Positions 1-31,688 of a stretch of 64,000 nucleotides of DNA are shown piece after piece. The notes beneath the pieces are model-generated. The model searched no databases. It had not been told where the DNA came from and saw nothing but the letters and a program-made list of their open reading frames with translations. The DNA lies in assembly GCA_035715365.1 (NCBI GenBank), contig DASTLB010000022.1, positions 336,242 to 400,241 on the forward strand, read 5' to 3'. A program made the position numbers and the translations under genes. Positions within the stretch are counted from its first letter, which is position 1. Every line of letters begins with the position of its first letter. This DNA is from Kofleriaceae bacterium (GTDB taxonomy: Bacteria > Myxococcota_A > Polyangia > Haliangiales > Haliangiaceae).

Positions 1-759
1 GCCGACCTTGCCCTTGCGCGCCTTGAACGACTCGGTGTCGCCGGCCTTGTGACGATCGAGCTCGGGACGATCGAAGCCCTTCTGCTCGATCTTGCGCATG
101 TTATCGAACCGGCCGTACTCGACCGCGCGCTCGAGCGACGCGCGCGATGCGTCGACGCCGACGGTGCGCATCACGTGATCGAGCTCGGTCACGGTGTCCG
201 CGTGCAGCTGCTCGTAGCGCACGACGTAGAACCGCTTCGGCACGTTCCGGTTCTCGGCCCAGACGTTGTAGTACGTCAGCATCGAGTCGAGGCCGCCGAT
301 CGGATGGCGGAGGAACTCGCCGGCGGTGCCGCTGAACCGGCCGCGGCGCTTCGACGCCTCGAAGTAATACGAGATGATCGCGTCGCGCGGATCGCGGACG
401 AGCAGCACGACGTCCTTCTTCGCGAACCGGCTCTTGTCGCGCTCGATCTCCTCGGGGCGCCGCAGCTGCGGGCTCGCGTCGTGGCGGACCTCGATCCGTG
501 GCACGTGCTTGCCGAGTCGCGCGAGCTCGGTGATCCGCGCCGGGTTCGCGTCGCCGAGGCCGCGCTCCTCGACGATCGCCTTGCCCATCAGCACGGTGAG
601 CCAGGTCCGGCCGCAGCCGGGAAACGACAGCACGTAGGCGTCGGTCTGCTGGTGGCTCCACCACTGACGAACGGCCTTCGTGACTTTACGAGCTCGGGCG
701 AGGTTCGCGGGCGAGTGCTCGCCGAGCTGTTGAACAACCCATTGACGCATGCGACGCAT
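1..759 (-). CDS. Sulfotransferase, 3'-truncated at the window edge (PAPS-binding P-loop FPGCGRTWL). Paralog of the sulfotransferase at 5482-6324. Not in the ORF track because it runs off the window.
   Basis: Manual translation of the minus strand from ATG at 759-757: MRRMRQWVVQQLGEHSPANLARARKVTKAVRQWWSHQQTDAYVLSFPGCGRTWLTVLMGKA...VRDPRDAIISYYFEASKRRGRFSGTAGEFLRH... This aligns at roughly 60% identity with the 5482-6324 product. The plus-strand ORF 49-762 is its antisense. Confidence 0.75.
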   Translation of the reverse strand, partial: MRRMRQWVVQQLGEHSPANLARARKVTKAVRQWWSHQQTDAYVLSFPGCGRTWLTVLMGKAIVEERGLGDANPARITELARLGKHVPRIEVRHDASPQLRRPEEIERDKSRFAKKDVVLLVRDPRDAIISYYFEASKRRGRFSGTAGEFLRHPIGGLDSMLTYYNVWAENRNVPKRFYVVRYEQLHADTVTELDHVMRTVGVDASRASLERAVEYGRFDNMRKIEQKGFDRPELDRHKAGDTESFKARKGKVG

Positions 760-837
760 TAGATGACCTCGGCTCGTACCACGTTCATTCGAGGCTGGCC
801 GGAAAACCGGTGCCGGAAACCAGTGTAGATTGCAGCG

Positions 838-1503
838 ATGCCGCTCCTGCGCCAGCTCGGAACCCTCGTCGGGAAAGGGGCCAAATCGGTCTCGCGCCAG
901 GGGATCTATTCGTTCCTCGAGGCGCAGCTCGCGCAGCTCCAGCCCGGTGAGCGCGTCCTCTCGATCGGAGCCGGCGGCGAGATCGGCACGCGCATCATCG
1001 CCGAGCGCGCGCGCGGCGTGAACATCCTCCAGCTCGACATCGACGACAAGCGCGGCGCGGACATCGTGGCGGATCTTTGCAAGTGGCGCGCGGACGAGCC
1101 GTTCGACGCGATCATCTGCTCCGAGGTGCTCGAGCACGTCTGGGCACCGCACCTCGCGGTCGAGAACATGTTCGCGAGCCTGCGCGAGGGCGGCAAGCTG
1201 ATCCTGACCGCGCCGTTCGTGCTGCCGATCCACGCCGCGCCGAACGACTTCTTTCGCTACACGCGGCACGGCCTCGAGGTCCTGCTGCGCGACTTCAAGC
1301 AGGTCACGATCGAGGATCGCAACTCGTGGGCGGAGTCGCTCGGCGTGCTCGCGGTGCGCATGGTGCGCAAGCGCAAGACGCGCGCGCTCGAGGCGACGGT
1401 CGTGCCGTTCGTCGCCGCCGGCTATCCGCTGCTGCGCGCGGTCGGCAAGCTGTTCCCGGCGAACGAGATGCCGACCGGCTACAACGTGATCGCGATCCGC
1501 TAG
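838..1503 (+). CDS. Class I SAM-dependent methyltransferase (Methyltransf_11/25-like)
   Basis: Motif I VLSIGAGGEIG, acidic loop LQLDID, and motif post-I/II DAIICSEVLEHV. Its stop overlaps the stop of the convergent 1500-2363 gene (CTAG). Confidence 0.8.
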   Translation: MPLLRQLGTLVGKGAKSVSRQGIYSFLEAQLAQLQPGERVLSIGAGGEIGTRIIAERARGVNILQLDIDDKRGADIVADLCKWRADEPFDAIICSEVLEHVWAPHLAVENMFASLREGGKLILTAPFVLPIHAAPNDFFRYTRHGLEVLLRDFKQVTIEDRNSWAESLGVLAVRMVRKRKTRALEATVVPFVAAGYPLLRAVGKLFPANEMPTGYNVIAIR

Positions 1504-2363
1504 GCGCCGTAGCCGTAGTAGCGATTGAGCGCGCCGCCGACGAGGTTGACGATCCGCTGATCGCGCTTCGGCATCTCGCGCCGCCACTTCTCGTCGAGCC
1601 GGATCGTCGAGTCCGTGCTCTTCGCCATCCGGTTGCCGCCGAGCCCGAGCCACGTGTGATCGCGGTAGCGCAGCATCTGCGGGTCGTACGCGAGCCCCAT
1701 CAGCGAGCAGATCTGCGCGAGCGTCGCCGCCGGATCCGTGACCAGGTCCTCGTACCGCACGCGCATCCAGCGGTCGCCGAACCGCGGCTGCAGCGCCATC
1801 GCGCCGGCGTTCGACTTCAGCCACTTCGACAGTCCGTAGCGCACGACCTTGTACTTCTTCGTGTACGAATGAACGATCCCGCGCGCATCGCGCACCAAGT
1901 GGACGACGCGAAGGTCGAACAACCCCGAGCGGTCCATGAGGTAGAGCTGGTGCCACGACTTCGACGCGTCGATGATCCACGGCTTGCCGGTCACCTGCGA
2001 CAGGCACTCGAGCAGCGCCGCGCGCGGCCGGGTCCACTCGGTCACGCGCTCGCGCGACCACCGCAGGAACGTCTTCACCGACGGGTGATAGAGGTCGAGG
2101 TCGGCGAAGCGCAGGTGCGTCCGCTGCTCGAAACAGCGTGCCGCCTCCTGCCACGCGGGCTCGGCGAGCACCGGGTCGTGATCGCGGATGCAGTCCTTGA
2201 GCGCCCCGAGCTCGCTGACCGCGACGCAGTCCGGATGTCCGTTCAACAACAGGCTGAGCAGCGTCGAGCCGCAGTGCCCCGCGCCGAGGATGAACAACAC
2301 GCGCTGCCGCTCGGGGCTGGTGACCACCGAGTGCTCGTACCACACGCGTCGAGAGGGGAGCAA
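1500..2363 (-). CDS. Sulfotransferase family protein (P-loop LGAGHCGSTLL; stand-alone Sulfotransfer_3-like)
   Basis: N-terminal 5'-PSB-like loop ILGAGHCGSTLLSLLL followed by RDxRG-type region LVRDARGIVHS. The start at 2363 is TTG; a GTG start (VWYEH...) about 18 nt downstream is an alternative. Confidence 0.7.
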   Translation of the reverse strand: MLPSRRVWYEHSVVTSPERQRVLFILGAGHCGSTLLSLLLNGHPDCVAVSELGALKDCIRDHDPVLAEPAWQEAARCFEQRTHLRFADLDLYHPSVKTFLRWSRERVTEWTRPRAALLECLSQVTGKPWIIDASKSWHQLYLMDRSGLFDLRVVHLVRDARGIVHSYTKKYKVVRYGLSKWLKSNAGAMALQPRFGDRWMRVRYEDLVTDPAATLAQICSLMGLAYDPQMLRYRDHTWLGLGGNRMAKSTDSTIRLDEKWRREMPKRDQRIVNLVGGALNRYYGYGA

Positions 2364-2365
2364 CG

Positions 2366-3775
2366 ATGCTAAGTTCGCCCGCGATGATCAGGTCGCTGTC
2401 GTCGGACGATGCGCCGAGCGAGATCGACACCGACGTGTGCGTGATCGGTTCGGGCGCCGCCGGCGTCGCGGTTGCCCGCGAATTTCTCGGAACCGGCACG
2501 CGCGTCACCGTGCTCGAGAGCGGCGGTCGCAAGCCGACGCCGTCGCCGGATCCGCTGTACGACCTGCAGACCTCGCACCTCCCGATCCCGACCGACTCGC
2601 GCGTGCGCTCGTTCGGCGGCACGACGACCGTGTGGTCCGGACGCTGGAAGCGCTTCGATCCGATCGACTTCGTGCCGCGCGACTGGGTGCCGCGCTCCGG
2701 CTGGCCGATCGCGTACGACGCGCTGACGCCGTACTACGAGCGCGGCGCGCGCGCGGCGAAGGTCGACGACCGGCCGAAGCCGGGCGATGTCCCCGAGCTG
2801 CTGCGGTCGTCGATCGTCGTGCCGACGGTGTTCCACACCTTGACCGAGGCCGAGCGTGACTTCGGGATCGCGACCGGGCCGCGGTTCGAGCGCGCGACCA
2901 ACGTCGAGGTGCTGCTCGACGCGCACGTCGTCGGCTACGACACCGCGAACCGCAGCGTGTCGCGCGTGCTCGTGCGCTCGGGCGCGAGGTCGATCGGCGT
3001 CCGCGCGAAGCTCGTCGTGATCGCGACCGGTGGCATCGAGAACGCGCGCCAGCTGCTGATCGCGAACGCCGGCAACGACCACGATCAGGTCGGCCGCTAC
3101 TACATGGATCACCCGAAGGCGAAGATCGGCGTGATCGAGACCTACGAGCCGATCGACACCTCGTCGTGGAAAGGCCTCGACGAGAGCGCGCCGGTCTGGG
3201 TCGGCTTCCGGCTCGCCGACGACATCCAGCGCGAGCGCCGCATCCTCAACAGCTATGCATTCCTGGCGCCCGCGTTCGAGCGCGATCTGCCGCGCCGCAT
3301 CCTGCGCCGGCTCGTCAAGCCGAAGATCTGCCGCGTGCTCGACGTCCGCAACTACCTCGAGCAAGAGCCCGATCCCGACAACCGCGTCTACCTCGGCGGC
3401 GACAGCGATCCGCTCGGCCTGCCGAAGGCGAAGGTCGCGTGGACGATCCGCGACCAGGACCGGCGCACGATCGTCGAGCTCCATCGCCTGCTCGCACGCG
3501 AGCTGCAGAAGAACAAGGTCGGCGAGCTCCACAGCCCGTTCCTCGACGGCCGCGAGCCGCCGCCGTTCCAGGATGCCTCGCACCACATGGGCACGACGCG
3601 CATGGGCACGGACCCTCGGACGTCGGTCGTCGACACCGAGTGCCGCGTCCACACCGTCGACAACCTGTTCGTCGCCGGCAGCTCGGTGTTCCCGACGAGC
3701 GGCTACGCGAACCCGACGGCCACGCTGGTCGCGCTCGCGATCCGGCTCGCCGATCACCTGAAGACCCGCCTATGA
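2366..3775 (+). CDS. GMC-family FAD-dependent oxidoreductase (glucose-methanol-choline type)
   Basis: N-terminal FAD fold DVCVIGSGAAGVAVAREF...VLESG, central ATGGIENARQLL, and C-terminal GMC signature HHMGTTRMG...VDNLFVAGSSVFPTSG. Confidence 0.85.
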   Translation: MLSSPAMIRSLSSDDAPSEIDTDVCVIGSGAAGVAVAREFLGTGTRVTVLESGGRKPTPSPDPLYDLQTSHLPIPTDSRVRSFGGTTTVWSGRWKRFDPIDFVPRDWVPRSGWPIAYDALTPYYERGARAAKVDDRPKPGDVPELLRSSIVVPTVFHTLTEAERDFGIATGPRFERATNVEVLLDAHVVGYDTANRSVSRVLVRSGARSIGVRAKLVVIATGGIENARQLLIANAGNDHDQVGRYYMDHPKAKIGVIETYEPIDTSSWKGLDESAPVWVGFRLADDIQRERRILNSYAFLAPAFERDLPRRILRRLVKPKICRVLDVRNYLEQEPDPDNRVYLGGDSDPLGLPKAKVAWTIRDQDRRTIVELHRLLARELQKNKVGELHSPFLDGREPPPFQDASHHMGTTRMGTDPRTSVVDTECRVHTVDNLFVAGSSVFPTSGYANPTATLVALAIRLADHLKTRL

Positions 3776-4788
3776 ACAACGTGCTCGTCATCGGCGCCGG
3801 CAAGCGCACGCTCGGCGCGGTGCTGCCCGCGCTGCACTGCATGCCGGATCGGTTCCGGGTCGCCGGCGTCGTCGCGCGCAGCGTCAAGCAGGTCTCGTAC
3901 GGCCTCGGCACCGTGACCACGCGCGACTCGCTCGACGGCATCGACTGGAAGGCGATCGACCTCGTCATCACCGCGGTCTCGATCAGCCAGGTGCCGCGGA
4001 TGCTCGCGAGCCTCGCGCGCCGCGACGTCGGCCACGCGGTGCTGCTGCACGACACGCCGGTGCTGCCGCCGTCGGGGCTGCCGGCCGCGCGCCACTTCGC
4101 CGCGTTTCGCCGCGCGTACATCTCCGAGGACAACATCGCGCTGCCGCCGCTGCTGCTCGCGAAGCAGCTGATCGACGACGGCGCGATCGGCCAGCTGAAG
4201 AAGATCTACTTCTTCCACAACGGCTACAAGCACCACGCGCTCGCGAGCCTCAAGCTCCTGACCGGCTCGACGATCGAGCGCATCGTCAGCCGCAAGTTCG
4301 CCGGCAAGCTGCGCCAGAAGACGATCGACTTCGCGAGCGGCGTCACCGCGCTGATGTACGAGCCGCGCGACTACGCCACCGGCCGGTTCCTGATCGAAGG
4401 CGACCGCGGCGCGATCGCGGACTACGACTACGCGAACGGCTCGGTGCGCCGCATCGGCTACGTCGTCGACGGCGACGTCTACCGCGGGCTGACGCTCGAC
4501 GGTGCGCCGGTGCCGCCGGCCGGCCTCGACGCCGACTACCTCGCGCGGATCGGCCCCGGGATCCCCGAGGCCTCGCCGATGAACACGATGAAGCTGCGCG
4601 GGCTGATGGATCTGATCGTCGGTGCGCTCGATGATCGGTCGCCGTTTCACTACACGCCCGAGGACGGCATCGCCGATCACCTCGCGATCCGGATCGTCGA
4701 TCGCGTCGGCTACGTGCCGGCGCAGCGCACGCTCGCGCGGCTCGTGCCGCTCGCGAAGCGCGTGCCGTTCGTGCAGCGCGCCCTATGA
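3772..4788 (+). CDS. Gfo/Idh/MocA-family NAD(P)-dependent oxidoreductase (sugar dehydrogenase-like)
   Basis: Start ATG at 3772 overlaps the GMC stop (ATGA). N-terminal Rossmann VLVIGAGKRTLGAVLPAL. The six-frame ORF 3166-4788 carries an R-rich spurious N-terminal extension. Confidence 0.7.
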   Translation: MNNVLVIGAGKRTLGAVLPALHCMPDRFRVAGVVARSVKQVSYGLGTVTTRDSLDGIDWKAIDLVITAVSISQVPRMLASLARRDVGHAVLLHDTPVLPPSGLPAARHFAAFRRAYISEDNIALPPLLLAKQLIDDGAIGQLKKIYFFHNGYKHHALASLKLLTGSTIERIVSRKFAGKLRQKTIDFASGVTALMYEPRDYATGRFLIEGDRGAIADYDYANGSVRRIGYVVDGDVYRGLTLDGAPVPPAGLDADYLARIGPGIPEASPMNTMKLRGLMDLIVGALDDRSPFHYTPEDGIADHLAIRIVDRVGYVPAQRTLARLVPLAKRVPFVQRAL

Positions 4789-5120
4789 ACGTCGACGAGC
4801 TCGTCACGCCGACCCTGGACCGGATGCGGTCCCGACGGAATCCGCTGATGCCGGACCGCACGTTCAAGGATCTGTTCGCCTTCATTCTGGGCCTGCTGGA
4901 AGGACTCCAGCTGACGCAACATGACGTTGCTAGCTCGCAACTCAATCGCTTCATCTGCGAGCTCGATTCGATCAAGTTTCCCCACAACTGGAAGCACGTC
5001 CTGTCTCGGCGGGCTGTCGCGGACAACGAAGCCGCGATTGCACAGTTCTTCTCGCTCTGGGAGAGCTATCGCGATACCCAGCAGGTGCCAGCCGTGCCAA
5101 GTCTGGACGACGCCGTCTAG
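4785..5120 (+). CDS. Hypothetical small protein (111 aa), coupled by ATGA overlap to the upstream oxidoreductase; markedly lower GC than neighbours
   Basis: ORF with ATG at 4785 overlapping the TGA of 3772-4788. Composition is AT-richer than the flanks. No recognisable motif. Confidence 0.35.
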   Translation: MNVDELVTPTLDRMRSRRNPLMPDRTFKDLFAFILGLLEGLQLTQHDVASSQLNRFICELDSIKFPHNWKHVLSRRAVADNEAAIAQFFSLWESYRDTQQVPAVPSLDDAV

Positions 5121-5485
5121 TCGGCCGAGATATTGCCCGCGAGCTGCCAGATCGGCCGGTAGCCGAAGTACACGGTGAACACGAGCGCCGCGACGATCGC
5201 GCCAATCGCCGCGAGGTAAATCCACAGCGGACCCGGTCGCTTCACGACGAGCCACGCGACCACGGCCGCACCGACGGTCGGCACGCCGATCAGCCACGGC
5301 GGGCGGATCGCGAAGATCGTCGCGTGCGAGATCTGCGCGTGCGGGCCCATCTCGCGATACATCGCCTCGAAGCCCGAGAACCACCACGACACGAGGCCGT
5401 GCACGGCGACGAGCAGCGCGAGCGCGCCGGTGAGCATGCCGCGGCCGAAGCCGGAGGTGTCGTCGGGTGGTGGCGGCGCCGTCAT
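5117..5485 (-). CDS. Small integral membrane protein (122 aa, about 3 TM helices), last gene of the minus-strand glycan operon
   Basis: C-terminal portion of six-frame ORF 5117-6256: MTAPPPPDDTSGFGRGMLTGALALLVAVHGLVSWWF...AAIGAIVAALVFTVYFGY. Start ATG at 5485-5483 overlaps the upstream stop (ATGA). Confidence 0.5.
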   Translation of the reverse strand: MTAPPPPDDTSGFGRGMLTGALALLVAVHGLVSWWFSGFEAMYREMGPHAQISHATIFAIRPPWLIGVPTVGAAVVAWLVVKRPGPLWIYLAAIGAIVAALVFTVYFGYRPIWQLAGNISAD

Positions 5486-6324
5486 CGCGGCGGCAGGTAC
5501 TCGGCGTAGAACGGCGACAGCGTCGACGCGATGCGCTCGTTCAGGTAGGCGATCTCGTCGGGCGACAGGTACTCGCGGAAGCCGCCGACCTTGCCCTTGC
5601 GCGTCTTGAACGACTCGGTGTCCGCGGCGTCTCCTGGCTTGAGGCGCGCGGCGGCGTCCTTCGCGGCCTGGGCCTCGAGCTTGCGCATGTTGTCGAATCG
5701 CGAGAACTCGACCGCGGCCTCGACGACCGCGCGCGGCGGGACGGTGCCAACGACGCGCAGGCAGCGCTCGACCTCGGTGACCGGATCCTTGTGGAGGTCC
5801 TCGTAGCGGACGAGCGTGAACGACCGCGGGATCGTGCGCGCCTCGGCCCACACGTTGTAGTAGGCGATGATCGTGTCGAGCGAGCCGACGTCGTGGCGCA
5901 GGAACTCGCCGGGCGTGCCGTGGAAGCGATCGCGACGGCGCGACGCCTGGAAGTAGTAGGAGATCATCGTGTCGCGCGGATCGCGGACGAGGAAGATGAT
6001 GTCCTTGCCGGCGTAGTGCGTCTTGTCGCGCTCGACCTCGTCGGGGCGCTTGAGCTGCGGATTGTCGTCGTGGGTGACGCGCATCCGCGGCAGCTGCTTC
6101 GCGTGCTGGTAGAAGCGCGCGAGGTCCATCGGGTCGATGTCGAGGTGGAGCTCGTCGGCGAGCGCCTTGCCCATCATCAGGCGCAGCCAGGTGCGGCCGG
6201 TCTTCGGGAACGAGAGTAGATACAGCGACGTGCGCTGGTGCGTGTACCAGCTCCACGCGCGCTTGCCGACGTCGGTCTCGCGGACGTACTTGCGCAGGTT
6301 CGACGGCAGTGCGGTGAGGTTCAT
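5482..6324 (-). CDS. Sulfotransferase (PAPS-dependent; P-loop SFPKTGRTWL, 3'-PB motif VRDPRDTMISYYF)
   Basis: Six-frame ORF 5482-6915 has an R-rich spurious N-terminus. The true start MNLTALP... (ATG 6324-6322) overlaps the TGA of the upstream dehydrogenase (ATGA). It shows sulfotransferase 5'-PSB and 3'-PB signatures. Confidence 0.8.
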   Translation of the reverse strand: MNLTALPSNLRKYVRETDVGKRAWSWYTHQRTSLYLLSFPKTGRTWLRLMMGKALADELHLDIDPMDLARFYQHAKQLPRMRVTHDDNPQLKRPDEVERDKTHYAGKDIIFLVRDPRDTMISYYFQASRRRDRFHGTPGEFLRHDVGSLDTIIAYYNVWAEARTIPRSFTLVRYEDLHKDPVTEVERCLRVVGTVPPRAVVEAAVEFSRFDNMRKLEAQAAKDAAARLKPGDAADTESFKTRKGKVGGFREYLSPDEIAYLNERIASTLSPFYAEYLPPR

Positions 6325-8897: not shown

Positions 8898-9652
8898 GAT
8901 GCAATCTCCTCTGCGTGGCGTGCGAGCGCCCGCTCCAGATCGGTGAGCTGAAGGCACGGTAACCCGCCCGCCTTCGCGTTGTGAACGTCGTCGGCGCCGA
9001 GATAGCCCCACAGCGCCAGGTGCGCGGAAATCCCGCGCTTCAGCGCCGGGAGTGCGTGGTGCGCGTAGTCGTCGAGGAAGAACACCGCGCTCGCCGGCAG
9101 CCCTCGCGCCTCGGCGGCCTCGACGAGGATCTGCCACTTCTCCTTCGTCCCCGAGCGCGGCAGCAGCGTCGGCGTGATGCCCGCGAAGTGGCCGAGGATC
9201 CGCTGGATCGAGCGATCGTCGCGCGTCGACAGGATCACGGCGTCACCGCCGAGCTTGCGAAACGCCTGCACGGCGTCGGCGAACGGCTCGATGACGGAAC
9301 ACCAGGTCGCGACGTCCTCGGACAGCTCGCCGCGTGTCGCGAAGTAGAGGTCGGTGAACGAGGCGAGCTCGGCCTTGCGCGCGTTCGCGATCGCGAGGAA
9401 CTGCTCGGTCGTCGACGGTAACTGCTCCGTCGCCAGCAGGTCGAGCAGCACCGCGTACTGCCACGGCGGACCGACCCAGTGGCGGTGCGCGAGGAACGCG
9501 GTCGCGAGCTCCGGCGTCGGCGACGCGACATCACGCCAGCGCTCGGCCGCGGGACCCGGGCGCTTCCTCGACGCCGCGTACGCGACCGCGAGGCACTCGC
9601 GCGCGGTGTCGAACAGCACGCCGTCGAAGTCGAACACGTAGAGCGGCTTCAC
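8894..9652 (-). CDS. HAD-superfamily phosphatase (DxDGV motif; KdsC / sugar-acid-phosphate phosphatase-like)
   Basis: N-terminal FDFDGVLFDT (HAD motif I), later ILSTRD and FFLDDYAHH (motifs II-IV). GTG start. Confidence 0.75.
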   Translation of the reverse strand: MKPLYVFDFDGVLFDTARECLAVAYAASRKRPGPAAERWRDVASPTPELATAFLAHRHWVGPPWQYAVLLDLLATEQLPSTTEQFLAIANARKAELASFTDLYFATRGELSEDVATWCSVIEPFADAVQAFRKLGGDAVILSTRDDRSIQRILGHFAGITPTLLPRSGTKEKWQILVEAAEARGLPASAVFFLDDYAHHALPALKRGISAHLALWGYLGADDVHNAKAGGLPCLQLTDLERALARHAEEIAS

Positions 9653-9659
9653 CGGACCC

Positions 9660-10697
9660 TCAGCGGAACAGGTCGACCGCGTCGGCGACGCGCGACGAGT
9701 AACCCCACTCGTTGTCGTACCAGAGCACGACCTTGAGCTGGCGGCCGCGGTTCAGCATCAGCCACCGCGTGTCGATGATGCAGCTGTGCTCGTCCTTCAG
9801 GTAGTCGACCGAGATCAGCGGCTCGTCGGTGATCCGCACGACGTGGCGGCCCTGCTGCGAGGCCTCGAGCGCGTGTAGCGCCTCGAGCACGGTCTGCTCG
9901 GTCGCGTCGCGCTCGAGGTGCAGCGTCATGTCGCCGCTCGACACGCATGGCGTCGGCACGCGATAGGACATGCACTTGAGGCGCCCGGCGAGCGCCGGCA
10001 GGATGCGCTCGCACGCGCTGACGACCGTCGTCGGCTTCGGGATCAGCGCGCCGACCGACGACCGGCCGAGCGGATAGTGCGAGTACGTCGCGCCCGGGTA
10101 CGCCTGCGAGCGCGCCGGACCGTCCATCAGGTTCTGGTACGACAGCCACGGGTGCAGCGTCGTGATGAAGCCGAACTCGACGCCGAACCGCTCGTCGAGC
10201 GTCTTCAGCACGGGCGCGGCGGCGATCGCGTCGCAGATGCTCGTCGACACGACGCGATGCTTCTTCGCGTCGAAACCCTGCTCGGTCGCACCGAACACGA
10301 GCGTGTAGTCCGCGCTCGGCGCGGCGTGCGTGATCAGGACCGGCGCGATCGAATCCGCGACCTTGCGCGCGTGCTTCTCGTTCAACGACGTGCCGGTCGC
10401 CTCGATCACGACGTCGACCTCGCCGTGCTGCCAGTCGACCGCGGCGATGTCGTTGACGTGCGTGACGCGGATCGACGCGTCGCCGACGTGCAGGCCCTCG
10501 TACGTCGCATCGACCTTCTGCGCGAGCCGGCCGTACGTGGTGTCGTACTTCAGCAGGTACGCGAGGTTCTCCTTGTCGACGTTCAGATCGTTGATGTGGA
10601 CGATCCGGTGCTTGCCGCTCTCGAGGAGGATCCGCGTGACCGCGCGGCCGATGCGGCCAAAGCCGTTGATCCCGATTCGCAAGGCGCGTGTGCTCAT
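9660..10697 (-). CDS. Glyceraldehyde-3-phosphate / erythrose-4-phosphate dehydrogenase family protein (divergent catalytic region)
   Basis: N-terminal RIGINGFGRIGR (GAPDH NAD-binding signature). The catalytic-Cys region reads STSICDAIAAAP rather than canonical ASCTTNCLAP. ATG at 10697 with a GGAGG RBS overlaps the upstream stop (ATGA). The track ORF 9660-11930 is a read-through artefact. Confidence 0.8.
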   Translation of the reverse strand: MSTRALRIGINGFGRIGRAVTRILLESGKHRIVHINDLNVDKENLAYLLKYDTTYGRLAQKVDATYEGLHVGDASIRVTHVNDIAAVDWQHGEVDVVIEATGTSLNEKHARKVADSIAPVLITHAAPSADYTLVFGATEQGFDAKKHRVVSTSICDAIAAAPVLKTLDERFGVEFGFITTLHPWLSYQNLMDGPARSQAYPGATYSHYPLGRSSVGALIPKPTTVVSACERILPALAGRLKCMSYRVPTPCVSSGDMTLHLERDATEQTVLEALHALEASQQGRHVVRITDEPLISVDYLKDEHSCIIDTRWLMLNRGRQLKVVLWYDNEWGYSSRVADAVDLFR

Positions 10698-11857
10698 GAT
10701 GACCTCCGGCTGCGTAGCTCGAGCAGCGTGCTGGCAATCCGATCCGCCGCCTGACCGCGATGGGCCAGGTGGCGCTCCAGAAACGAGTCGGCGCGCGGGC
10801 GCTCTCCCGCGACGAGCGCGGGCAATTCGCGCGCGAGGTTGTCGAGCGTCAGCCCGACGGCGGCGCCGCGCTCGACGTACTCGAAGATGTGGCCGTACTT
10901 CGGCAGCGCGAGTACCCCGAGCGGCAGCCCGAACGCGAGCGCCTCGAGGCCGACGGTCGACGCGAGCACGACCGCGGCCTGCCCCATCGCGAGCACCTCG
11001 AACAGCGGCTCGCTGCCGTCGAGCACCGTGACGTTTGCCTGCGGCGTGTGCTTCGCGGTGTTGCGAAACCCGGCGACGCTCTCGCGCGGGTGCAACTTGG
11101 CGACGATCGGCCGGCCTGCGAGCACCGGCGCCGCGCGCTCGAGGAACGCGTGGAACAGGTCGTACTTCTCGGCGGTCGTGCAGAAGCCCTGATCGTCGAT
11201 CGTGTTCGACAGGAACAGCAGCGGTCGCTCGGACAGGCCGAGCTTTGCTTGCAGCGCTTCGCCGCGCGCGCGCCACTGGGCGGGATCGACGTCGTCCCAG
11301 CGCGGCGTCCCGGTGATCACGACGTTCGCGCCGACCTTGCGAAAGTGCTCGGCGCTCGCCTCGCCCCACACGCACACCGCCGACGCGCCGCCGCCGCCGT
11401 ACGGCGCGCCCGCCGCCTGCTCGGTCGGCAGCGGAAACCGGATCCCCTCCTGGAGCAGCGCGAACGGCACCTCGGCGCGGCGCAGCTGCTCGGCGAGCTG
11501 GCCGTACGGGAACGCGGCATCGTTCGGCAGCACGACGACGTCGCTGCCGCGCAACAGCCAGCGCAAGCGCGGCGCGAGCACCGTGTGCCACGCGAGCTTC
11601 TGCGCCGTCGACCGCGCCGCGGCGCCGCCCGCGCCCTCGAGCCCGGCACCGACCGACGGATCCTTGCGGATCCAGCGCGGCAGCGCCTGCTTCACCGTCG
11701 TGTGCGGCACGAGCTTCGGCAGATCCGGCGTCTGGAAGCCGCGCAGCTCCGCCAGGGACACGAACCGCGTCGGCTCGCCCTGCGCCGCGAGCTTCTTCGC
11801 GACGGGCACCATCATGTCGACGTGGTGCCGCGGGTTCGTGAACACGAACGTCACCAT
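10694..11857 (-). CDS. Capsule-polysaccharide-biosynthesis-like transferase (KpsS/KpsC- or TagF-like, about 387 aa)
   Basis: Size and architecture resemble Capsule_synth/Glyphos_transf proteins: N-terminal Rossmann-like block, central LLFLSNTIDDQGF, C-terminal HPRES. Recognition is by general family resemblance only. The 7-nt ATGGTGA overlap links it to the upstream GT4. Confidence 0.45.
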   Translation of the reverse strand: MVTFVFTNPRHHVDMMVPVAKKLAAQGEPTRFVSLAELRGFQTPDLPKLVPHTTVKQALPRWIRKDPSVGAGLEGAGGAAARSTAQKLAWHTVLAPRLRWLLRGSDVVVLPNDAAFPYGQLAEQLRRAEVPFALLQEGIRFPLPTEQAAGAPYGGGGASAVCVWGEASAEHFRKVGANVVITGTPRWDDVDPAQWRARGEALQAKLGLSERPLLFLSNTIDDQGFCTTAEKYDLFHAFLERAAPVLAGRPIVAKLHPRESVAGFRNTAKHTPQANVTVLDGSEPLFEVLAMGQAAVVLASTVGLEALAFGLPLGVLALPKYGHIFEYVERGAAVGLTLDNLARELPALVAGERPRADSFLERHLAHRGQAADRIASTLLELRSRRSS

Positions 11858-12969
11858 GCCGCCGCTGCCTCGCCGAGCATCGCGCCCTGGTACTTCGCCA
11901 TCGCGGCGACAGTCGTGAACCGCTCGGCACCGCGGCGGGCGGCCTCGCTCATCCGGGCGTGGAGCTGCGCGTCGTCGAGCAAGCGCGCCGCGCGGTCAGC
12001 GAGCACGTGCGGATCGCCGACCGGCACGAGGAAGCCGGATACACCGTTCTCGATCACCTCGCGCGGCCCGAAGTCGGCATCGGTCGACACGACCGGCACG
12101 CCGCACGACATCGCCTGGATGATCCCGCCCGGCAGGCCCTCGGCGCGGCTCGCGTGGATCAGCAACTTCGAGCGCGCGAGGTACTTGAACGGGTTCGGAT
12201 CGAAGCCGTGGAACACGACGTCGTCGGCGAGGCCGAGCTGCTGCGCCTGCGCTTCGAGCTCGCGGTGCAGCGGGCCCTCGCCGAGCACGAACAGCCGGAC
12301 GCGCCGGCTCGCGCGCACGATCGCGAACGCGCGCAACATCGTGGGATAGTCCTTGATCGCGACGAGGCGGCCGATCGCGAGCAGCACCGGCACGTCGCCT
12401 CCGAACCACGGGTGGTCGACCGGCTCGGCGGCCTGGCGGCGCGTCTCGTCGTCGACGAGTGGGTTGTAGACGACGTGGACCTTCGTCTTCGCGAGGCCGA
12501 GCGCGCTGACGAGATCGTCGGCGACGCCGCGCGATACCGCGGTGACGACATCGGCGAGCCGGTAGGTCGCCATCTTCGCCGGCAACTCGATCGCCATGCG
12601 CGTCGGGCTACGATCGACGCGGCGGAGCGCGCTGCGCTCGGACACGACGAGCCGCGCCTTCGAGCGCGCGAGCACGTGCGCCATCGCCGCGACGATGTTC
12701 GCGCCGCCCTGCATCGCGAACACGACGTCGGGCCGTTCCTGGCGCAGCACGCGCGCGAGCGCCGGTACCGAGACCGCGAGCCGGCGCGTGCCGAGCTCGA
12801 TCGTCCGGACGTCCGGCGGGATCTCGCCGACGAACGAGCCCTCGCGGCGCAGCAGCGCGATCGACGGCTCGAACTTCGTGCGATCGAGGTGGCGCAGCAG
12901 CGTGATCGTCACGCGATCCGCGCCGCCCGACGCCAGCGTCGGCGTGAAGAACAGGACGCGTGTCGTCAC
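11851..12969 (-). CDS. Glycosyltransferase family 4 (GT-B, retaining)
   Basis: C-terminal EX7E-type motif [24 protein letters not shown]-terminal [21 protein letters not shown] start at 12969 overlaps the APS kinase stop (GTGA); the track start at 13014 would overlap cysC by 48 nt. Confidence 0.85.
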
Positions 12970-13496
12970 GCCAGCTCCAGCCGCTCCAGCGTGGCGATGA
13001 TCTCGCGCTCGCACTCGGCGAGTGGCTTCAGATCGGTGCGGACCTCGAGCGTCGGCGCCGGCGGCGGCTCGTACGGATCCGAGATCCCGGTGAAGCTCGC
13101 GATCTCGCCGGCCTGGGCCTTCTTGTAGAGGCCCTTCACGTCGCGCGCGATCACGGTCTCGAGCGGCGCGTTCACGAACACCTCGACGAACGGGTGCCCG
13201 GCGGCCTCGCTCGCGGCCTTGAGCTCGGCGCGCGTGTCGGCGTACGGCGAGATCGCCGCGACGAACACGAGCACGCCGTGTTTCGCGAGCAGCCGGCCGA
13301 CGTACGCGATCCGGCGGACGTTGGTGTCGCGATCGGCGCGCGAGAATCCGAGGCCCGCGGTCAGGAACATGCGGACCTCGTCGCCGTCGAGCAGCTCGAT
13401 CGGGCGCCGCGTCGCGAGGCGCTGCGAGACCGCGGTCGCGAGCGTCGACTTGCCCGCGCCCGACAGGCCGGTGAGCCAGACGATCCCGCCGCGCAT
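12966..13496 (-). CDS. cysC: Adenylyl-sulfate kinase (APS kinase; makes PAPS)
   Basis: Walker [20 protein letters not shown], and [16 protein letters not shown], a textbook CysC. ATG at 13496 (the track's 13499 is a GTG) overlaps the upstream TGA by 1 nt. Confidence 0.9.
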
Positions 13497-14704
13497 CACG
13501 CCGCTGCCTTCGGTGCGATCACCGGACGCACCACGGGCTTGCGCGCCGCAGCGGCGAGCTTGTCTTCTTCACGCAACGAGACGACGACGCCGAGCAAGAC
13601 CCACATGAGTGCAAACCGTAATCCTTGATGGGTCATGCCGTAGGCGAAGGCCGGGCCGACGACCATCCACGTCTGGAGAGGCGTTCGTTTCATGACGAAC
13701 CACATGAAGATGCCGAACAGCACCGTGCCGACGATGCCGTAGCAGAAGAACATCGTGCCGAGCGACGAGTGCAGCTCGTGCGAGCCGATCACCGTCGTGT
13801 CCTTGAACCGGCGATACGCGCCCTCGCCCGAGCCGAGCACCCAGTACTCGGGGTTGTTGACGATGCGGTCGTAGCCGCGCTCCTCGAAGAAGTCGTGCGA
13901 CTCGTCGCGATCGATGCGCTCCTGTGCGCGCTCGAGCGCGGCGGAGAACGGGTTCGGCGTCACGAGCAGGACGACGAACACGAGCGCCGCGACGATCATC
14001 GTGCGCAGCCGTCCGATCAGGATCGCGATCGCGAGCATCGCGATGCTGGCGAGCGCGGCCTTCGACGCCGACAGCAGCGCGAGGTAGCTCGCCATCGTCA
14101 CGCCCGCGAGCACCGCGACCGTCGACATCTTCGTGCGGCGCTGGCCGAGCAGCAGGATGCACGCGCACAGCAAACCGTAGTAGCCGAGCTGGTTCGGCTC
14201 GTTGAACGCGTTCGTCGAGCGCATGCGGCTCGAGCCACCGAGGCTGACGAGGATCTGCAGCCCGAGCGACACGAGGATCACGCGCGTCGTCAGCCACAGG
14301 AACTTCAGGCCGTATCGCCGGTGCAGCAGCAGGATCGTGAAGAACAGCAGCAGGTTGAAGATGTAGAACAGCGGGCTGAGGATGAAGCTGTCCTTGAGAT
14401 CGACCGAGATCTTGCCGACCCACACCGTCCACAGCAGGTTCGCGATCACCGCGTAGAGCACGAACCGCGCGAGCGCCATCAGCGTCCGGCGCGTGTCGGT
14501 CATCAGCTTGCCGTCCCACGACGCGAAGATCGACGGCATCAGCACGACGAGCAGCCACACCGCGGGCTGCGGCAGCCCGTTCGGCACGACGTAGAACGGG
14601 AAGAAGATGATGAAGAGGCTCCACGCGAGCAGCCGCGGATCGCGACAGATCGCGATCGCCTCGGCCATCGTGTGACCGAGCGAGGGAGGAACCCGGAACT
14701 TCAT
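13496..14704 (-). CDS. Wzy-like polysaccharide polymerase / O-antigen-ligase-family membrane protein (first gene of the operon)
   Basis: About 10-12 predicted TM helices and a large periplasmic loop ...[20 protein letters not shown]... typical of Wzy_C proteins. Conspicuously AT-richer (TTT/TTC codons) than neighbours. Confidence 0.6.
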
Positions 14705-14801
14705 CTGCAGAGCCGACGGTTTATAGCGTAGTTAGTCGTCGCGGCGCGCCCGAACGTTCGCGTCCACGGCGCAGGTTTGTGGCTCGTAAATTCGAGGATC
14801 T

Positions 14802-14847
14802 AGGCCCGAAAATGACGACGGGCCCGAGGCCTTGGCAGCCGCGGGCC
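14802..14847 (-). terminator. Candidate terminator hairpins after the repeat-lipoprotein gene (GGCCCG-n10-CGGGCC and GGGCCCG-n15-CGGGCCC)
   Basis: Two overlapping GC-rich inverted repeats 20-60 nt downstream of the stop at 14867 (minus strand). The minus-strand reading has a TTTT within or after the stem. Confidence 0.35.
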
Positions 14848-14866
14848 CGTCGAGCGCAGGCCGTGC

Positions 14867-18178: not shown

Positions 18179-18271
18179 GGATGCTCCCATGCAAGATCGA
18201 ATGCTCATGATACTCGCTTCCCGGTCGTCTGGAGTCGACCATACCCCGTTGTTATCCGACTGCTTTGTGGT

Positions 18272-31349: not shown

Positions 31350-31669
31350 CAGAAGGGCTCTTTCTTCACGGTCGCGATGATGAGCGGCATGAAGTCCTGC
31401 TTCAGGCTCTCCCACTCGTACGTGATGTCTTTGGCCGTGAGCACGTAGACCACGCTCGGACGCGGAACCTTGCCGCACACCGAGACGACGGTGTCGATCA
31501 CGGTGACCGGCTTGCCGTTGACGTACTCGATGTGGAACTTGCCCTGCTTCTTCTCGCCGGTCTCGGCGGCGTCATCGGGGCAACCCTCGGCGCGCGCCTT
31601 CGCCGGCAGCGCCGTGACCAGCGTGGCCGCGGTCAGCGCGATCAGAGACAGAGGTCCGAGTGCTCGCAT
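31349..31669 (-). CDS. Small secreted protein (106 aa) in GltF/NfsF position
   Basis: Signal peptide MRALGPLSLIALTAATLVTALPAKA and a GGGAGA RBS. Position between TPR lipoprotein and GltG-like gene matches gltF/nfsF. Confidence 0.45.
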   Translation of the reverse strand: MRALGPLSLIALTAATLVTALPAKARAEGCPDDAAETGEKKQGKFHIEYVNGKPVTVIDTVVSVCGKVPRPSVVYVLTAKDITYEWESLKQDFMPLIIATVKKEPF

Positions 31670-31688
31670 GGGGTCTCCCTAGTATGAC

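What the first reader, a model, noticed from the sequence alone, without database searches (positions are those of the whole stretch)
1..14704. Candidate sulfated-glycan biosynthesis system: three sulfotransferases of two families plus a dedicated APS kinase inside a Wzy/GT4 polysaccharide operon
An 11-gene, tightly coupled minus-strand operon (14704->5117) contains a Wzy-like polymerase, APS kinase (cysC-type, the PAPS supplier), GT4, a capsule-synthesis-like transferase and a terminal sulfotransferase. A further sulfotransferase of a different family (1500-2363) and a truncated paralog (1-759) flank it, with a methyltransferase and two sugar oxidoreductases. Bacterial PAPS-dependent glycan sulfation is uncommon (rhizobial Nod-factor/LPS, mycobacterial sulfolipid, cyanobacterial EPS). 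A myxobacterial-type locus with three sulfotransferases and its own PAPS-forming kinase is not a described system as far as I know. No sulfate adenylyltransferase (cysDN/sat) is present in the window, so PAPS supply must begin elsewhere.
Basis: partly seen in the sequence, partly recalled or inferred. Interest (0 to 1): 0.8.

Follow-up and report, generated by a model that had tools for sequence, protein, structure and literature searches.

The report
Sulfated polysaccharide locus with unknown CMP-acid module
This stretch of an uncultured soil myxobacterium (Kofleriaceae) carries a surface-polysaccharide gene cluster with three sulfate-adding enzymes and its own PAPS-forming kinase, a kind of cluster already seen in rhizobia, cyanobacteria and actinomycetes; its least ordinary part is an embedded, widely conserved five-gene pathway for an unidentified CMP-activated acid.

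Summary
Window 1-14704 encodes three PAPS-type sulfotransferases (two Sulfotransfer_1 paralogs, one Sulfotransfer_3), a standalone APS kinase, a GT4 glycosyltransferase and a distant Wzy_C-family membrane protein. Eleven overlapping minus-strand genes run from 14704 to 5117. A PglF-like dehydratase and a DegT aminotransferase lie just upstream.

Related uncultured Myxococcota repeat the gene set and place cysN-cysD next to it, so a sulfated, Wzx/Wzy-type polysaccharide is the best reading (confidence 0.72).

The claim that this system is undescribed does not hold. The S. meliloti pSymB nodP2-smb21248 cluster has nodP2Q2, three sulfotransferases, glycosyltransferases and Wzx. The Synechocystis xss (synechan) cluster and the Actinoplanes wps-1 cluster are close parallels.

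That middle is a cassette of a GAPDH-like enzyme, a HAD phosphatase, a NeuA/KdsB-type cytidylyltransferase, an FAH-family enzyme and a 2-hydroxyacid dehydrogenase. A new GT-B protein sits beside it. The cassette recurs in at least nine phyla, with no annotation or paper found. It probably supplies an unknown CMP-activated acid residue.

I rate it a new variant of a known kind, interest 0.5.

The parts
1..750 (-). ST1b: Sulfotransfer_1-family sulfotransferase. Its 3' end lies beyond the left edge of the window (full length 284 aa).
   Evidence: Pfam Sulfotransfer_1 at 52.3 bits. Identical to P0036. 52% identical to ST1a. The PSB loop reads PGCGRTW, with Gly where the conserved Lys normally sits.
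838..1503 (+). SAM-dependent methyltransferase
   Evidence: Methyltransf_23 at 2.9e-11. Orthologs at 50-69% identity sit next to sulfotransferase and GMC orthologs in L001 and L091-L094.
1500..2363 (-). ST3: Sulfotransfer_3-family sulfotransferase (the Pfam family of NodH)
   Evidence: Sulfotransfer_3 at 67.2 bits. 61% ortholog in L001. 27% identical to a pSymB sulfotransferase and 24% to a pSYSM xss-cluster sulfotransferase.
2366..3775 (+). GMC-family FAD oxidoreductase
   Evidence: GMC_oxred_C at 6.2e-29 plus an FAD-binding N-terminus. Orthologs at 63-66% identity sit beside sulfotransferase orthologs in L091-L094.
3772..4788 (+). Conserved 338-aa protein of unknown function that travels with the GMC, methyltransferase and sulfotransferase genes
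   Evidence: No Pfam, NCBIfam or PDB match. Single-sequence model has pLDDT 38.8. Orthologs at 62-65% identity in L091 and L094.
4785..5120 (+). 111-aa protein of unknown function with lower GC3
   Evidence: Gene call by GC3 phase. No family match.
5117..5491 (-). 124-aa membrane protein, the last gene of the operon
   Evidence: GC3 phase. Three hydrophobic segments. No family match.
5482..6324 (-). ST1a: Sulfotransfer_1-family sulfotransferase. Its start overlaps the stop of the 2-Hacid_dh gene.
   Evidence: Sulfotransfer_1 at 72.2 bits. Carries PKTGRTW, RDPRDTMIS and RKGKVG motifs, and His85 is invariant in 119 of 120 homologs. Nearest solved structures are cytosolic SULTs (SOT18, 5e-11).
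6321..7313 (-). D-2-hydroxyacid dehydrogenase (PGDH/GhrB-like), part of the cassette
   Evidence: 2-Hacid_dh_C at 1.6e-47. All NCBIfam equivalogs fall below cut-off. Adjacent to the cytidylyltransferase in 60 of 80 related loci and fused to it in L051.
7306..8163 (-). FAH-family enzyme (HpcE/HpaG-like), part of the cassette
   Evidence: FAA_hydrolase at 6e-45 and Rv2993c-like_N. PDB 1gtt at 1.2e-46.
8160..8897 (-). NeuA/KdsB-type cytidylyltransferase, part of the cassette
   Evidence: CTP_transf_3 at 45.8 bits. PseF model scores 65.6 against a cut-off of 205.7. NeuA structures only reach 3.5e-12. Orthologs up to 87% identical.
8894..9652 (-). HAD-superfamily hydrolase, a putative phosphatase, part of the cassette
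   Evidence: Pfam Hydrolase at 30.6 bits; DFDGV motif. The ortholog cluster hits HAD_2.
9660..10697 (-). GAPDH-family dehydrogenase with remodelled anion sites, part of the cassette
   Evidence: Gp_dh_N at 2e-30 and Gp_dh_C at 1.3e-28. Cys149, His176 and Arg231 are kept, while S148I, T150D and T179L are changed relative to 1vc2.
10694..11857 (-). TRF: GT-B-fold protein of an unannotated family. It is either the putative transferase for the cassette product or a NeuC-like 2-epimerase.
11851..13014 (-). GT4 glycosyltransferase. The likely true start is the GTG at 12966.
   Evidence: Glycos_transf_1 at 1.4e-35 and Glyco_transf_4 at 1.3e-18. 55% ortholog in L001.
12966..13499 (-). Standalone APS kinase (CysC type)
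   Evidence: APS_kinase at 183.6 bits. Synechocystis APS kinase 5cb6 at 7.6e-52, with P-loop, LDGD, ISPY and [11 protein letters not shown] motifs aligned. Orthologs at 76% identity sit beside the cassette in L006 and L017.
13496..14704 (-). Distant Wzy_C-superfamily membrane protein, a putative polymerase and the first gene of the operon
   Evidence: No Pfam hit itself. 15 of 38 homologs hit Wzy_C. At least 7 hydrophobic segments, and a loop at residues 250-318 holding the invariant R276, E294, H312.
14867..18208 (-). 1113-aa predicted lipoprotein with internal repeats and a Cys-rich C-terminus, conserved within the locus
   Evidence: Sequence. No Pfam match. A 44% ortholog lies between GT4 genes in L001.
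18272..19390 (-). DegT/PglE-type sugar aminotransferase
   Evidence: DegT_DnrJ_EryC1 at 4.1e-96.
19400..21313 (-). PglF/CapD-type membrane-anchored NDP-HexNAc 4,6-dehydratase
   Evidence: Polysacc_synt_2 at 6.4e-122. N-terminal hydrophobic segments. 42% identical to the pSymB homolog.

Best explanation
The region is the right-hand part of a Wzx/Wzy-type surface-polysaccharide locus of a Kofleriaceae (Myxococcota) MAG. It makes a sulfated, probably methylated, acidic heteropolysaccharide.

Proposed mechanism:
1. ATP sulfurylase, encoded elsewhere here and adjacent in relatives, makes APS. The operon's APS kinase converts APS to PAPS.
2. The PglF-like dehydratase and DegT aminotransferase make an NDP-4-amino-4,6-dideoxy-HexNAc. 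GT4 and other glycosyltransferases build a lipid-linked repeat unit on the cytoplasmic face.
3. The five-gene cassette (GAPDH-like, 2-hydroxyacid dehydrogenase, FAH, HAD phosphatase, cytidylyltransferase) turns a phosphorylated central metabolite into a CMP-activated 2-keto or hydroxy acid (ulosonic-type) residue. The GT-B protein TRF probably adds this residue.
4. The three soluble sulfotransferases, the methyltransferase and the GMC oxidoreductase tailor the unit in the cytoplasm.
5. Wzx, expected just left of the window, flips the unit. The Wzy_C-like protein polymerises it.

Shown here: family membership, motifs, operon coupling and conserved synteny. Inferred: every substrate, the order of the steps, the identity of the CMP-acid, and sulfation of a glycan rather than another acceptor.
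For: - Sulfotransferase, APS kinase, GT4, DegT and PglF HMM matches lie far above cut-offs.
- PAPS-binding and catalytic motifs are conserved.
- The sulfotransferases and the kinase lack membrane segments, so they are cytoplasmic.
- Eleven genes overlap or nearly abut.
- Orthologs of ST1a/ST1b lie beside Wzx, glycosyltransferases, PglF/DegT/PglD and APS kinase in L001, L003, L091 and L094.
- In L006 and L017 the order is APS kinase, TRF, cassette, then cysN-cysD.
- An APS_kinase-Sulfotransfer_1 fusion sits directly upstream of a cytidylyltransferase homolog in L032 and L034.
- The Wzy-like family overlaps Wzy_C.
- Homologous sulfation loci exist on pSymB and pSYSM.
- The cassette is conserved as a block in polysaccharide loci of many phyla, and a CTP_transf_3-2-Hacid_dh fusion occurs in L051.
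Against: - There is no chemistry. The organism is an uncultured MAG, and no product, sulfate content or enzyme activity is known.
- No Wzx, priming transferase, Wza/Wzc or ATP sulfurylase is in the window.
- The nearest solved relatives of the ST1 family are small-molecule cytosolic SULTs and glycopeptide sulfotransferases, not carbohydrate sulfotransferases.
- One homolog, in L005, lies outside any glycan context.
- ST1b lacks the conserved PSB lysine.
- In L091 and L094 the sulfotransferase/GMC/methyltransferase/Wzx module has no glycosyltransferase nearby.
- No NeuB/KdsA-type synthase accompanies the cytidylyltransferase here.
- By fold, TRF is closest to 2-epimerases, not to known CMP-sugar transferases.
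Confidence: 0.72

Rival explanations
1. The sulfotransferases, or at least the ST1a/ST1b pair with the GMC oxidoreductase, the methyltransferase and the 338-aa protein, modify a non-polysaccharide acceptor such as a lipid, a small metabolite or a lipid-linked monosaccharide. Their placement beside glycan genes would then reflect shared export or regulation.
For: - The closest solved structures are small-molecule SULTs and the glycopeptide sulfotransferases TEG12, Teg14 and StaL.
- The module ST1a-unk338-MT-GMC-ST1b-Wzx recurs in L091 and L094 without any glycosyltransferase within 10 kb, next to an EamA transporter and an aldo-keto reductase/kinase fusion.
- L005 shows a lone homolog in an unrelated context.
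Against: - In the window, L001 and L003 the same sulfotransferases are interleaved with GT4 genes, Wzx, PglF/DegT/PglD and Wzy-like genes.
- A MOP-family flippase directly follows ST1b orthologs, which points to a lipid-linked glycan.
- No PKS, NRPS or lipid-synthesis genes are in the window.
Confidence: 0.13
2. The APS-kinase homolog is not a PAPS supplier. It would be a Cj1415-like 3'-kinase acting on the cytidine nucleotide made by the neighbouring cytidylyltransferase, as in the C. jejuni O-methyl-phosphoramidate pathway (recalled from the literature, not retrieved here).
For: - The kinase sits next to the TRF-cassette block in the window, L006 and L017.
- APS-kinase homologs occur near the cytidylyltransferase family in 7 of 80 loci, including a pyruvate-kinase-APS_kinase fusion in L023.
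Against: - It aligns end to end with bona fide APS kinases (5cb6 at 7.6e-52; human PAPSS kinase domains at about 1e-45), with the APS and ATP motifs intact. It is 49% identical to the NodQ kinase domain.
- It co-occurs with sulfotransferases (window, L003) and with cysN-cysD (L006, L017).
- In L032 and L034 the homolog is fused to a Sulfotransfer_1 domain.
- None of the other MeOPN enzymes (glutamine kinase, amidohydrolase, LicC-type transferase) appears among the operon's Pfam matches.
- The cassette occurs without any APS kinase in L007/L009, L010 and L015.
Confidence: 0.05
3. The APS kinase is simply the cell's general assimilatory cysC that happens to lie in this operon, so there is no dedicated PAPS supply. 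The locus would still make a sulfated glycan.
For: - In L006 and L017 the kinase lies within about 7 kb of cysN-cysD, which could be the housekeeping sulfate-activation genes.
- Only 64 kb of a 620-kb contig is visible, so a second copy cannot be excluded or shown.
Against: - The gene overlaps its neighbours on both sides inside a polysaccharide operon.
- In L003 its ortholog directly follows a sulfotransferase.
- Rhizobia show the precedent of a second, polysaccharide-linked nodP2Q2 copy.
Confidence: 0.25

Closest known systems
Sinorhizobium meliloti pSymB nodP2-smb21248 cluster (about 30 kb; predicted sulfated surface polysaccharide; PMC5498481)
   Same: Both place sulfate-activation genes and three sulfotransferases inside a polysaccharide locus that also holds GT4s, a PglF-like protein, a DegT aminotransferase, an O-antigen-ligase-domain protein and a chain-length determinant. 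There is direct homology: ST1a/ST1b 31%, ST3 27%, APS kinase 49% (to NodQ) and PglF-like 42% identity.
   Different: pSymB carries the full activation set (cysD, bifunctional nodQ, cysQ), whereas the window has only a standalone APS kinase. pSymB has no GAPDH/HAD/cytidylyltransferase/FAH/2-Hacid_dh cassette in the 40 kb examined. The phylum differs. The pSymB product is itself uncharacterised.
Synechocystis PCC 6803 xss cluster (synechan; PMC8205485)
   Same: A Wzx/Wzy-dependent EPS cluster with sulfotransferases of two subfamilies acting on the repeat unit. ST3 is 24% identical (E 1e-14) to one pSYSM sulfotransferase.
   Different: xss has two sulfotransferases, eight glycosyltransferases and no PAPS-forming gene in the cluster. 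It has no SULT-like Sulfotransfer_1 pair and no cytidylyltransferase cassette. Synechan sulfation is experimentally shown, unlike here.
Actinoplanes missouriensis wps-1 cluster (PMC13390465)
   Same: A Wzx/Wzy/Wzz cluster with two sulfotransferases from different families plus a SAM methyltransferase and a protein kinase, predicted to make a sulfated EPS. The window also has a methyltransferase and a Ser/Thr kinase nearby (23401-25746).
   Different: Sequence similarity was not tested here. No APS kinase or CMP-acid cassette is reported there. The host is Gram-positive.
CMP-ulosonic acid pathways (Kdo: KdsA/KdsC/KdsB; sialic, legionaminic and pseudaminic acids: NeuB/phosphatase/NeuA-type)
   Same: The cassette has a HAD phosphatase plus a CTP_transf_3 cytidylyltransferase, followed by a GT-B protein with faint similarity to Kdo, sialyl and 'surface carbohydrate' transferase families. 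In other phyla a LIC12162-family protein, annotated elsewhere as a putative nonulosonic-acid transferase, takes that place.
   Different: There is no PEP-condensing synthase (NeuB/KdsA) in the cassette. Instead there are a GAPDH-like enzyme, an FAH-family enzyme and a 2-hydroxyacid dehydrogenase. The cytidylyltransferase falls far below the PseF and KdsB equivalog cut-offs. The product is unknown.

Membership tests
PAPS-dependent sulfotransferase, Pfam Sulfotransfer_1 (ST1a 5482-6324; ST1b 1-750) | Profile match above the curated cut-off | tested here: met
   72.2 and 52.3 bits against a cut-off of 22.
PAPS-dependent sulfotransferase, Pfam Sulfotransfer_1 (ST1a; ST1b) | 5'-phosphosulfate-binding loop PKxGTTW with the conserved lysine | tested here: inconclusive
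   ST1a has PKTGRTW (met). ST1b has PGCGRTW, with Gly for Lys. The same change occurs in 18 of 120 homologs, so it marks a subclade and not a one-off defect.
PAPS-dependent sulfotransferase, Pfam Sulfotransfer_1 (ST1a; ST1b) | 3'-phosphate-binding motif (RxPxDxxxS), C-terminal RKGxxG, and a conserved catalytic histidine | tested here: met
   RDPRDTMIS / RDPRDAIIS and RKGKVG are present in both. His85 is invariant in 119 of 120 homologs.
PAPS-dependent sulfotransferase, Pfam Sulfotransfer_1 (ST1a; ST1b) | Sulfuryl transfer from PAPS to a defined acceptor | not testable with these tools
   Needs an enzyme assay.
Sulfotransfer_3 (NodH-type) sulfotransferase (ST3 1500-2363) | Profile match above the cut-off and P-loop-like PSB and 3'PB motifs | tested here: met
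   67.2 bits against 27 over the whole profile. GAGHCGSTLL and VRDARGIVHS are visible in the sequence. NodH is placed in PF13469 by PMC11625862.
APS kinase (CysC) | Full-length APS_kinase domain with P-loop, LDGD, ISPY and FTGI(D/S)DPYE motifs | tested here: met
   183.6 bits, profile positions 2-151 of 152. Motif-by-motif alignment to 5cb6.
APS kinase (CysC) | A standalone gene, not a fragment of CysN/C or Sat/CysC | tested here: met
   177 aa with its own start and stop, flanked by the Wzy-like and GT4 genes. No CysN or CysD homolog is in the window.
Wzy / O-antigen-ligase superfamily (13496-14704) | Match to Pfam Wzy_C | tested here: inconclusive
   No hit for the window protein even at E 10. 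15 of 38 family members hit Wzy_C, best E 3.7e-8.
Wzy / O-antigen-ligase superfamily (13496-14704) | Polytopic membrane protein with a large loop carrying conserved Arg and His | tested here: met
   At least 7 hydrophobic segments. A hydrophilic stretch at about residues 250-318 holds the invariant R276, Y278, E294, E310, H312.
Wzx/Wzy-dependent polysaccharide pathway | Wzx flippase, priming phosphoglycosyl transferase and PCP/OPX export proteins in the locus | tested here: inconclusive
   None is in window 1-64000. The locus runs off the left edge. Wzx directly follows ST1b orthologs in L091 and L094 and lies in L001 and L003. Wzc lies in L006.
Sulfated-polysaccharide cluster of the xss / pSymB type | Sulfotransferase genes embedded among glycosyltransferase and polymerisation genes | tested here: met
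Sulfated-polysaccharide cluster of the xss / pSymB type | Ester sulfate in the polysaccharide product | not testable with these tools
   The organism is an uncultured MAG.
CMP-ulosonic acid (Kdo / nonulosonic acid) biosynthesis | CTP_transf_3 cytidylyltransferase plus a HAD phosphatase | tested here: met
   45.8 bits (cut-off 22.6) and 30.6 bits (cut-off 26.4).
CMP-ulosonic acid (Kdo / nonulosonic acid) biosynthesis | PEP-dependent synthase (NeuB or KdsA) and an equivalog-level match to KdsB, NeuA or PseF | tested here: not met
   There is no NeuB or KdsA among the window genes. PseF scores 65.6 against 205.7, and the KdsB models score 25 or less against 193 or more.
C. jejuni MeOPN pathway (Cj1415-1418) | Glutamine kinase, LicC-type cytidylyltransferase and gamma-glutamyl-CDP-amidate hydrolase beside the APS-kinase homolog | tested here: not met
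   None of these domains appears in the Pfam results for the 11 operon genes or their flanks. Direct comparison with Cj1415 was not possible.

The most novel reading that the evidence does not exclude
The five-gene cassette (GAPDH-like, HAD, FAH, NeuA/KdsB-type cytidylyltransferase, 2-hydroxyacid dehydrogenase) is a previously undescribed route to a new CMP-activated acidic residue, one that does not depend on a NeuB/KdsA synthase. It may work by oxidising a phosphorylated aldehyde or aldonate to a 2-keto acid, which is then dephosphorylated and cytidylylated. The residue would be built into surface polysaccharides across at least nine bacterial phyla. In this Kofleriaceae lineage it has been joined to a PAPS/sulfotransferase module, giving a doubly anionic glycan.
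Probability: 0.4. Interest if true: 0.72.

Novelty: new variant of a known kind. Interest (0 to 1): 0.5.

Why it matters
Sulfated polysaccharides are industrially and medically valuable, and proven bacterial producers are few. Sulfotransferase-bearing Wzx/Wzy loci with in-operon PAPS supply recur in uncultured soil Myxococcota, with homologs on rhizobial megaplasmids. This supports the view that bacterial glycan sulfation is wider than the literature's 'cyanobacteria only' picture, and it supplies new SULT-like sulfotransferase families to test.

The cytidylyltransferase cassette is a cleanly delimited, highly conserved set of genes: up to 87% identity for the cytidylyltransferase, and gene fusions link its steps. 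No function has been assigned to it. Identifying its product would add a new nucleotide-activated building block to bacterial glycobiology. This is directly testable in vitro with five soluble enzymes.

Tried and rejected
- Exact-protein look-ups of ST1a and ST1b to recover the source contig and the left flank failed, because the TPA MAG is not indexed.
- A metagenome scan with ST1b gave relatives at 68% identity or less, but not the same contig.
- Single-sequence AlphaFold of the 338-aa protein 3772-4788 was unusable (pLDDT 38.8). PDB sequence search gave nothing.
- A profile of the TRF family against PDB sequences gave no significant hit. hhalign of TRF against a LIC12162-like protein was weak (probability 14%).
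- The afdb50 fold library was unavailable.
- NCBIfam named none of the cassette enzymes above cut-off.
- Literature searches for the cassette's gene combination, and for myxobacterial polysaccharide sulfation, found nothing relevant.
- A phosphonate origin was considered for the GAPDH-like/PGDH-like pair, as in valinophos. I rejected it because no PEP-mutase motif occurs in any ORF of 80 related loci.
- A CysN/C-fragment reading of the kinase was rejected.
- Promoter and terminator scans of 4600-15200 were uninformative: 0 promoters, and 8 weak terminator-like hairpins against 3.3 expected.
- No Rfam families or tRNAs are in the window.
- The beta-helix protein 25781-27217 is not an ortholog of the Pel9A-like proteins in L001 and L003.

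Full report
SOURCE AND GENE CALLS. The window is about 70% G+C, so raw ORF lists are full of spurious frames. I called genes from the phase of third-position GC and checked the translations. ST1a, the cytidylyltransferase and TRF are 100% identical to proteins of a 'MAG TPA: Kofleriaceae bacterium' on a 620,131-bp contig. Kofleriaceae belongs to Myxococcota, order Haliangiales. The glycan locus occupies window 1 to about 21,300 and continues beyond the left edge. The rest of the window holds secreted, TPR and kinase proteins and housekeeping genes such as obg, gatA/gatB and metG. It contains no tRNA and no Rfam family.

OBSERVATION CHECK. Three sulfotransferases are real and score well above the curated cut-offs:
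- ST1a, 5482-6324(-), Sulfotransfer_1, 72.2 bits.
- ST1b, 1-750(-), Sulfotransfer_1, 52.3 bits.
- ST3, 1500-2363(-), Sulfotransfer_3, 67.2 bits.

ST1b is not truncated in the genome. It equals the 284-aa protein P0036 and is cut only by the window edge. It is 52% identical to ST1a.

Gene 12966-13499(-) is a complete standalone APS kinase of 177 aa (183.6 bits). Its best solved relative is the Synechocystis APS kinase 5cb6 (7.6e-52), and the P-loop, LDGD, ISPY and [11 protein letters not shown] motifs all align.

GT4 (11851-13014), the methyltransferase (838-1503) and the GMC oxidoreductase (2366-3775) are confirmed. The 'Wzy-like' protein (13496-14704) has no Pfam hit of its own. It does belong to a family of 1,632 cluster representatives, and 15 of 38 sampled members hit Wzy_C. 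It is polytopic, with a loop that carries invariant Arg, Glu and His residues.

The eleven genes from 14704 to 5117 overlap by 1-10 nt or are separated by 7 nt, which fits one operon. Other corrections are listed under the observation check. The real gene there is a GAPDH-family protein at 9660-10697.

The centre of the operon is a block of six genes:
- TRF (10694-11857), a GT-B protein.
- A GAPDH-like dehydrogenase (9660-10697).
- A HAD hydrolase (8894-9652).
- A CTP_transf_3 cytidylyltransferase (8160-8897).
- An FAH-family enzyme (7306-8163).
- A D-2-hydroxyacid dehydrogenase (6321-7313).

All of these fall far below every NCBIfam equivalog cut-off, so they are divergent members with unassigned specificity.

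The block is conserved:
- In L006, a JGI soil contig that also carries the ST1a ortholog 7 kb away, the order is APS kinase, TRF, GAPDH, HAD, CTP, FAH, 2HADH and then convergent cysN-cysD. Identities run from 58% to 85%.
- L017 shows the same arrangement.
- L007/L009, L010 and L015 carry the block beside PglF/DegT, Wzy_C, Wza and Wzc but without an APS kinase or sulfotransferases.

A scan of one genome per species found 357 loci encoding the cytidylyltransferase family. In the best 80 loci, GAPDH-like co-occurs in 21, FAH in 18 and 2-Hacid_dh in 60. The full five-gene core occurs in Myxococcota, Bdellovibrionota/Oligoflexia, KSB1, Omnitrophota, Elusimicrobia, Fibrobacterota, Thermodesulfovibrionales, Rhodothermales and Vicinamibacterales. 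It is often followed by a LIC12162-like protein of about 600 aa in place of TRF.

Gene fusions tie steps together. L051 has a CTP_transf_3-2-Hacid_dh fusion, and L032 and L034 have an APS_kinase-Sulfotransfer_1 fusion directly upstream of the cytidylyltransferase homolog.

CLUES TO THE CASSETTE CHEMISTRY.
- The GAPDH-like enzyme keeps Cys149, His176 and Arg231 but carries S148I, T150D and T179L, so its inorganic-phosphate site is remodelled. It is probably a non-phosphorylating aldehyde dehydrogenase acting on a phosphorylated aldehyde. This is inference.
- The 2-hydroxyacid dehydrogenase family includes 2-ketoaldonate reductases (GhrB and KguD, established knowledge). Its fusion to the cytidylyltransferase suggests that it creates the 2-keto (ulosonic) function just before CMP activation. 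This is inference.
- A HAD phosphatase plus a cytidylyltransferase mirrors KdsC/KdsB. No NeuB or KdsA is present, and no PEP-mutase motif occurs in related loci.
- I could not identify the product, and no paper describing this gene set was found.

TRF.
- The TRF model is confident (pLDDT 92.9).
- Sequence profiles give only faint hits to Capsule_synth, DUF6716, polysialyltransferase and 'surface carbohydrate biosynthesis' models.
- QEG(136-138), H256 and E259 are invariant. They resemble the D/E-D/E-G and HP motifs of bacterial sialyl and nonulosonic-acid transferases (PMC6388019), although the Pro is kept in only 39 of 59 members.
- Transferase is my favoured role, at about 60%. A NeuC-like hydrolysing epimerase is the alternative.

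A SECOND CONSERVED MODULE. ST1a, ST1b, the GMC oxidoreductase, the methyltransferase and the 338-aa unknown protein recur together at 55-69% identity in L091-L094. A MOP-family flippase (Polysacc_synt_3) sits directly downstream of ST1b in L091 and L094. Wzx therefore probably lies just left of the window.

The ST1 family carries the PSB loop, the 3'PB motif, RKGxxG and an invariant His. ST1b-type paralogs form a recurrent subclade with Gly in place of the PSB lysine (18 of 120 homologs), and they co-occur with ST1a-type genes.

COMPARISON WITH KNOWN SYSTEMS.
- tblastn against plasmids placed homologs of both sulfotransferase types about 14 kb apart on Sinorhizobium pSymB.
- That pSymB region holds two sulfotransferases, DegT, GT4s, an O-antigen-ligase-domain protein, a chain-length determinant, a pectate lyase, a PglF-like protein and cysQ-nodQ-cysD.
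- It is the nodP2-smb21248 cluster, which has been proposed to make a sulfated surface polysaccharide with three sulfotransferases (PMC5498481).
- Identities to the window proteins are 27-49%.
- ST3 is also 24% identical to a sulfotransferase of the synechan xss cluster on pSYSM (PMC8205485).
- Actinoplanes wps-1 has two sulfotransferases of different families plus a methyltransferase in a Wzx/Wzy cluster (PMC13390465). A Pontiella cluster (PMC7356697) is a further parallel.
- A 2024 review states that six bacterial genera are now reported to make sulfated polysaccharides (PMC11625862).

The architecture is therefore a known kind. What is new is the phylum, the SULT-like sulfotransferase pair with its GMC/methyltransferase partners, and the physical coupling to the cassette.

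MECHANISM AND RIVALS. The best explanation and three rivals are given in their own sections. In brief:
- The soluble sulfotransferases must act in the cytoplasm, where PAPS is available, on a lipid-linked repeat unit before Wzx/Wzy processing, as proposed for synechan.
- The rival that the kinase is a Cj1415-like cytidine-nucleotide 3'-kinase is disfavoured by its motif conservation, its association with cysDN and sulfotransferases, and the APS_kinase-sulfotransferase fusion.
- The rival that the sulfotransferases act on a non-glycan acceptor keeps some weight. The ST1 family resembles small-molecule SULTs, and the module can occur without nearby glycosyltransferases.

VERDICT. The finding is real, and its functional reading is reasonable but chemically untested. 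As a sulfation system it is a new phylogenetic instance of a described architecture, not a new system. The uncharacterised, cross-phylum CMP-acid cassette raises the interest. I score interest at 0.5 and rate it a new variant of a known kind.

Noticed in passing
window 1-750 (ST1b); homologs P0031, P0032, P0036 and others: A recurrent subclade of the SULT-like sulfotransferase family has Gly instead of the conserved lysine of the 5'-phosphosulfate-binding loop (PG[CS]GRTW, 18 of 120 homologs). It keeps the invariant His, the 3'PB motif and RKGxxG. It co-occurs on the same contigs with a Lys-bearing paralog, which may mean a regulatory or heteromeric partner or an altered mechanism.
   Followed up: partly
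L051 4244-6181; L032 8531-9970 and L034 8533-9972; L023 15629-17278: Three fusion proteins occur in related loci. One joins CTP_transf_3 to 2-Hacid_dh. One joins APS_kinase to Sulfotransfer_1 directly upstream of a cytidylyltransferase homolog. One joins a pyruvate-kinase barrel to APS_kinase in an Omnitrophota MAG; I cannot explain this last one.
   Followed up: partly
window 14867-18208: A 1113-aa predicted lipoprotein (LAAC lipobox) has a dozen or more repeats of about 50 aa ending in a 'D.DIFG.R'-like motif, and a Cys-rich C-terminal domain. It has no Pfam match. A 44% ortholog lies between GT4 genes in the related polysaccharide locus L001, so it may be a glycan-associated surface protein.
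   Followed up: partly
L091 and L094 (also L092, L093): In a GC-richer lineage, the compact module ST1a / 338-aa unknown / methyltransferase / GMC oxidoreductase / ST1b / Wzx-like flippase stands without glycosyltransferases. It sits next to a GH25 lysozyme, an aldo-keto-reductase-AAA_33 kinase fusion, an EamA transporter and, in L091, a sulfatase.
   Followed up: partly
L012, L014, L021 (Oligoflexia, KSB1): The five-gene cassette often lies beside a separate NeuB gene plus a second cytidylyltransferase. These loci therefore seem to make two different CMP-activated acids.
   Followed up: no
window 25781-27217 and 21578-23104: A right-handed beta-helix (pectate-lyase-like) protein and a thrombospondin-type-3/LamG secreted protein lie just beyond the glycan genes. 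Related sulfation loci (L001, L003, pSymB) also carry pectate-lyase-like proteins, but these are not orthologous to the window's protein.
   Followed up: partly
window 30000-40000: AT skew on the + strand is strongly negative (down to -0.36) across a run of large minus-strand TPR-repeat genes (32828-36505, 36502-39012). No cause was sought.
   Followed up: no
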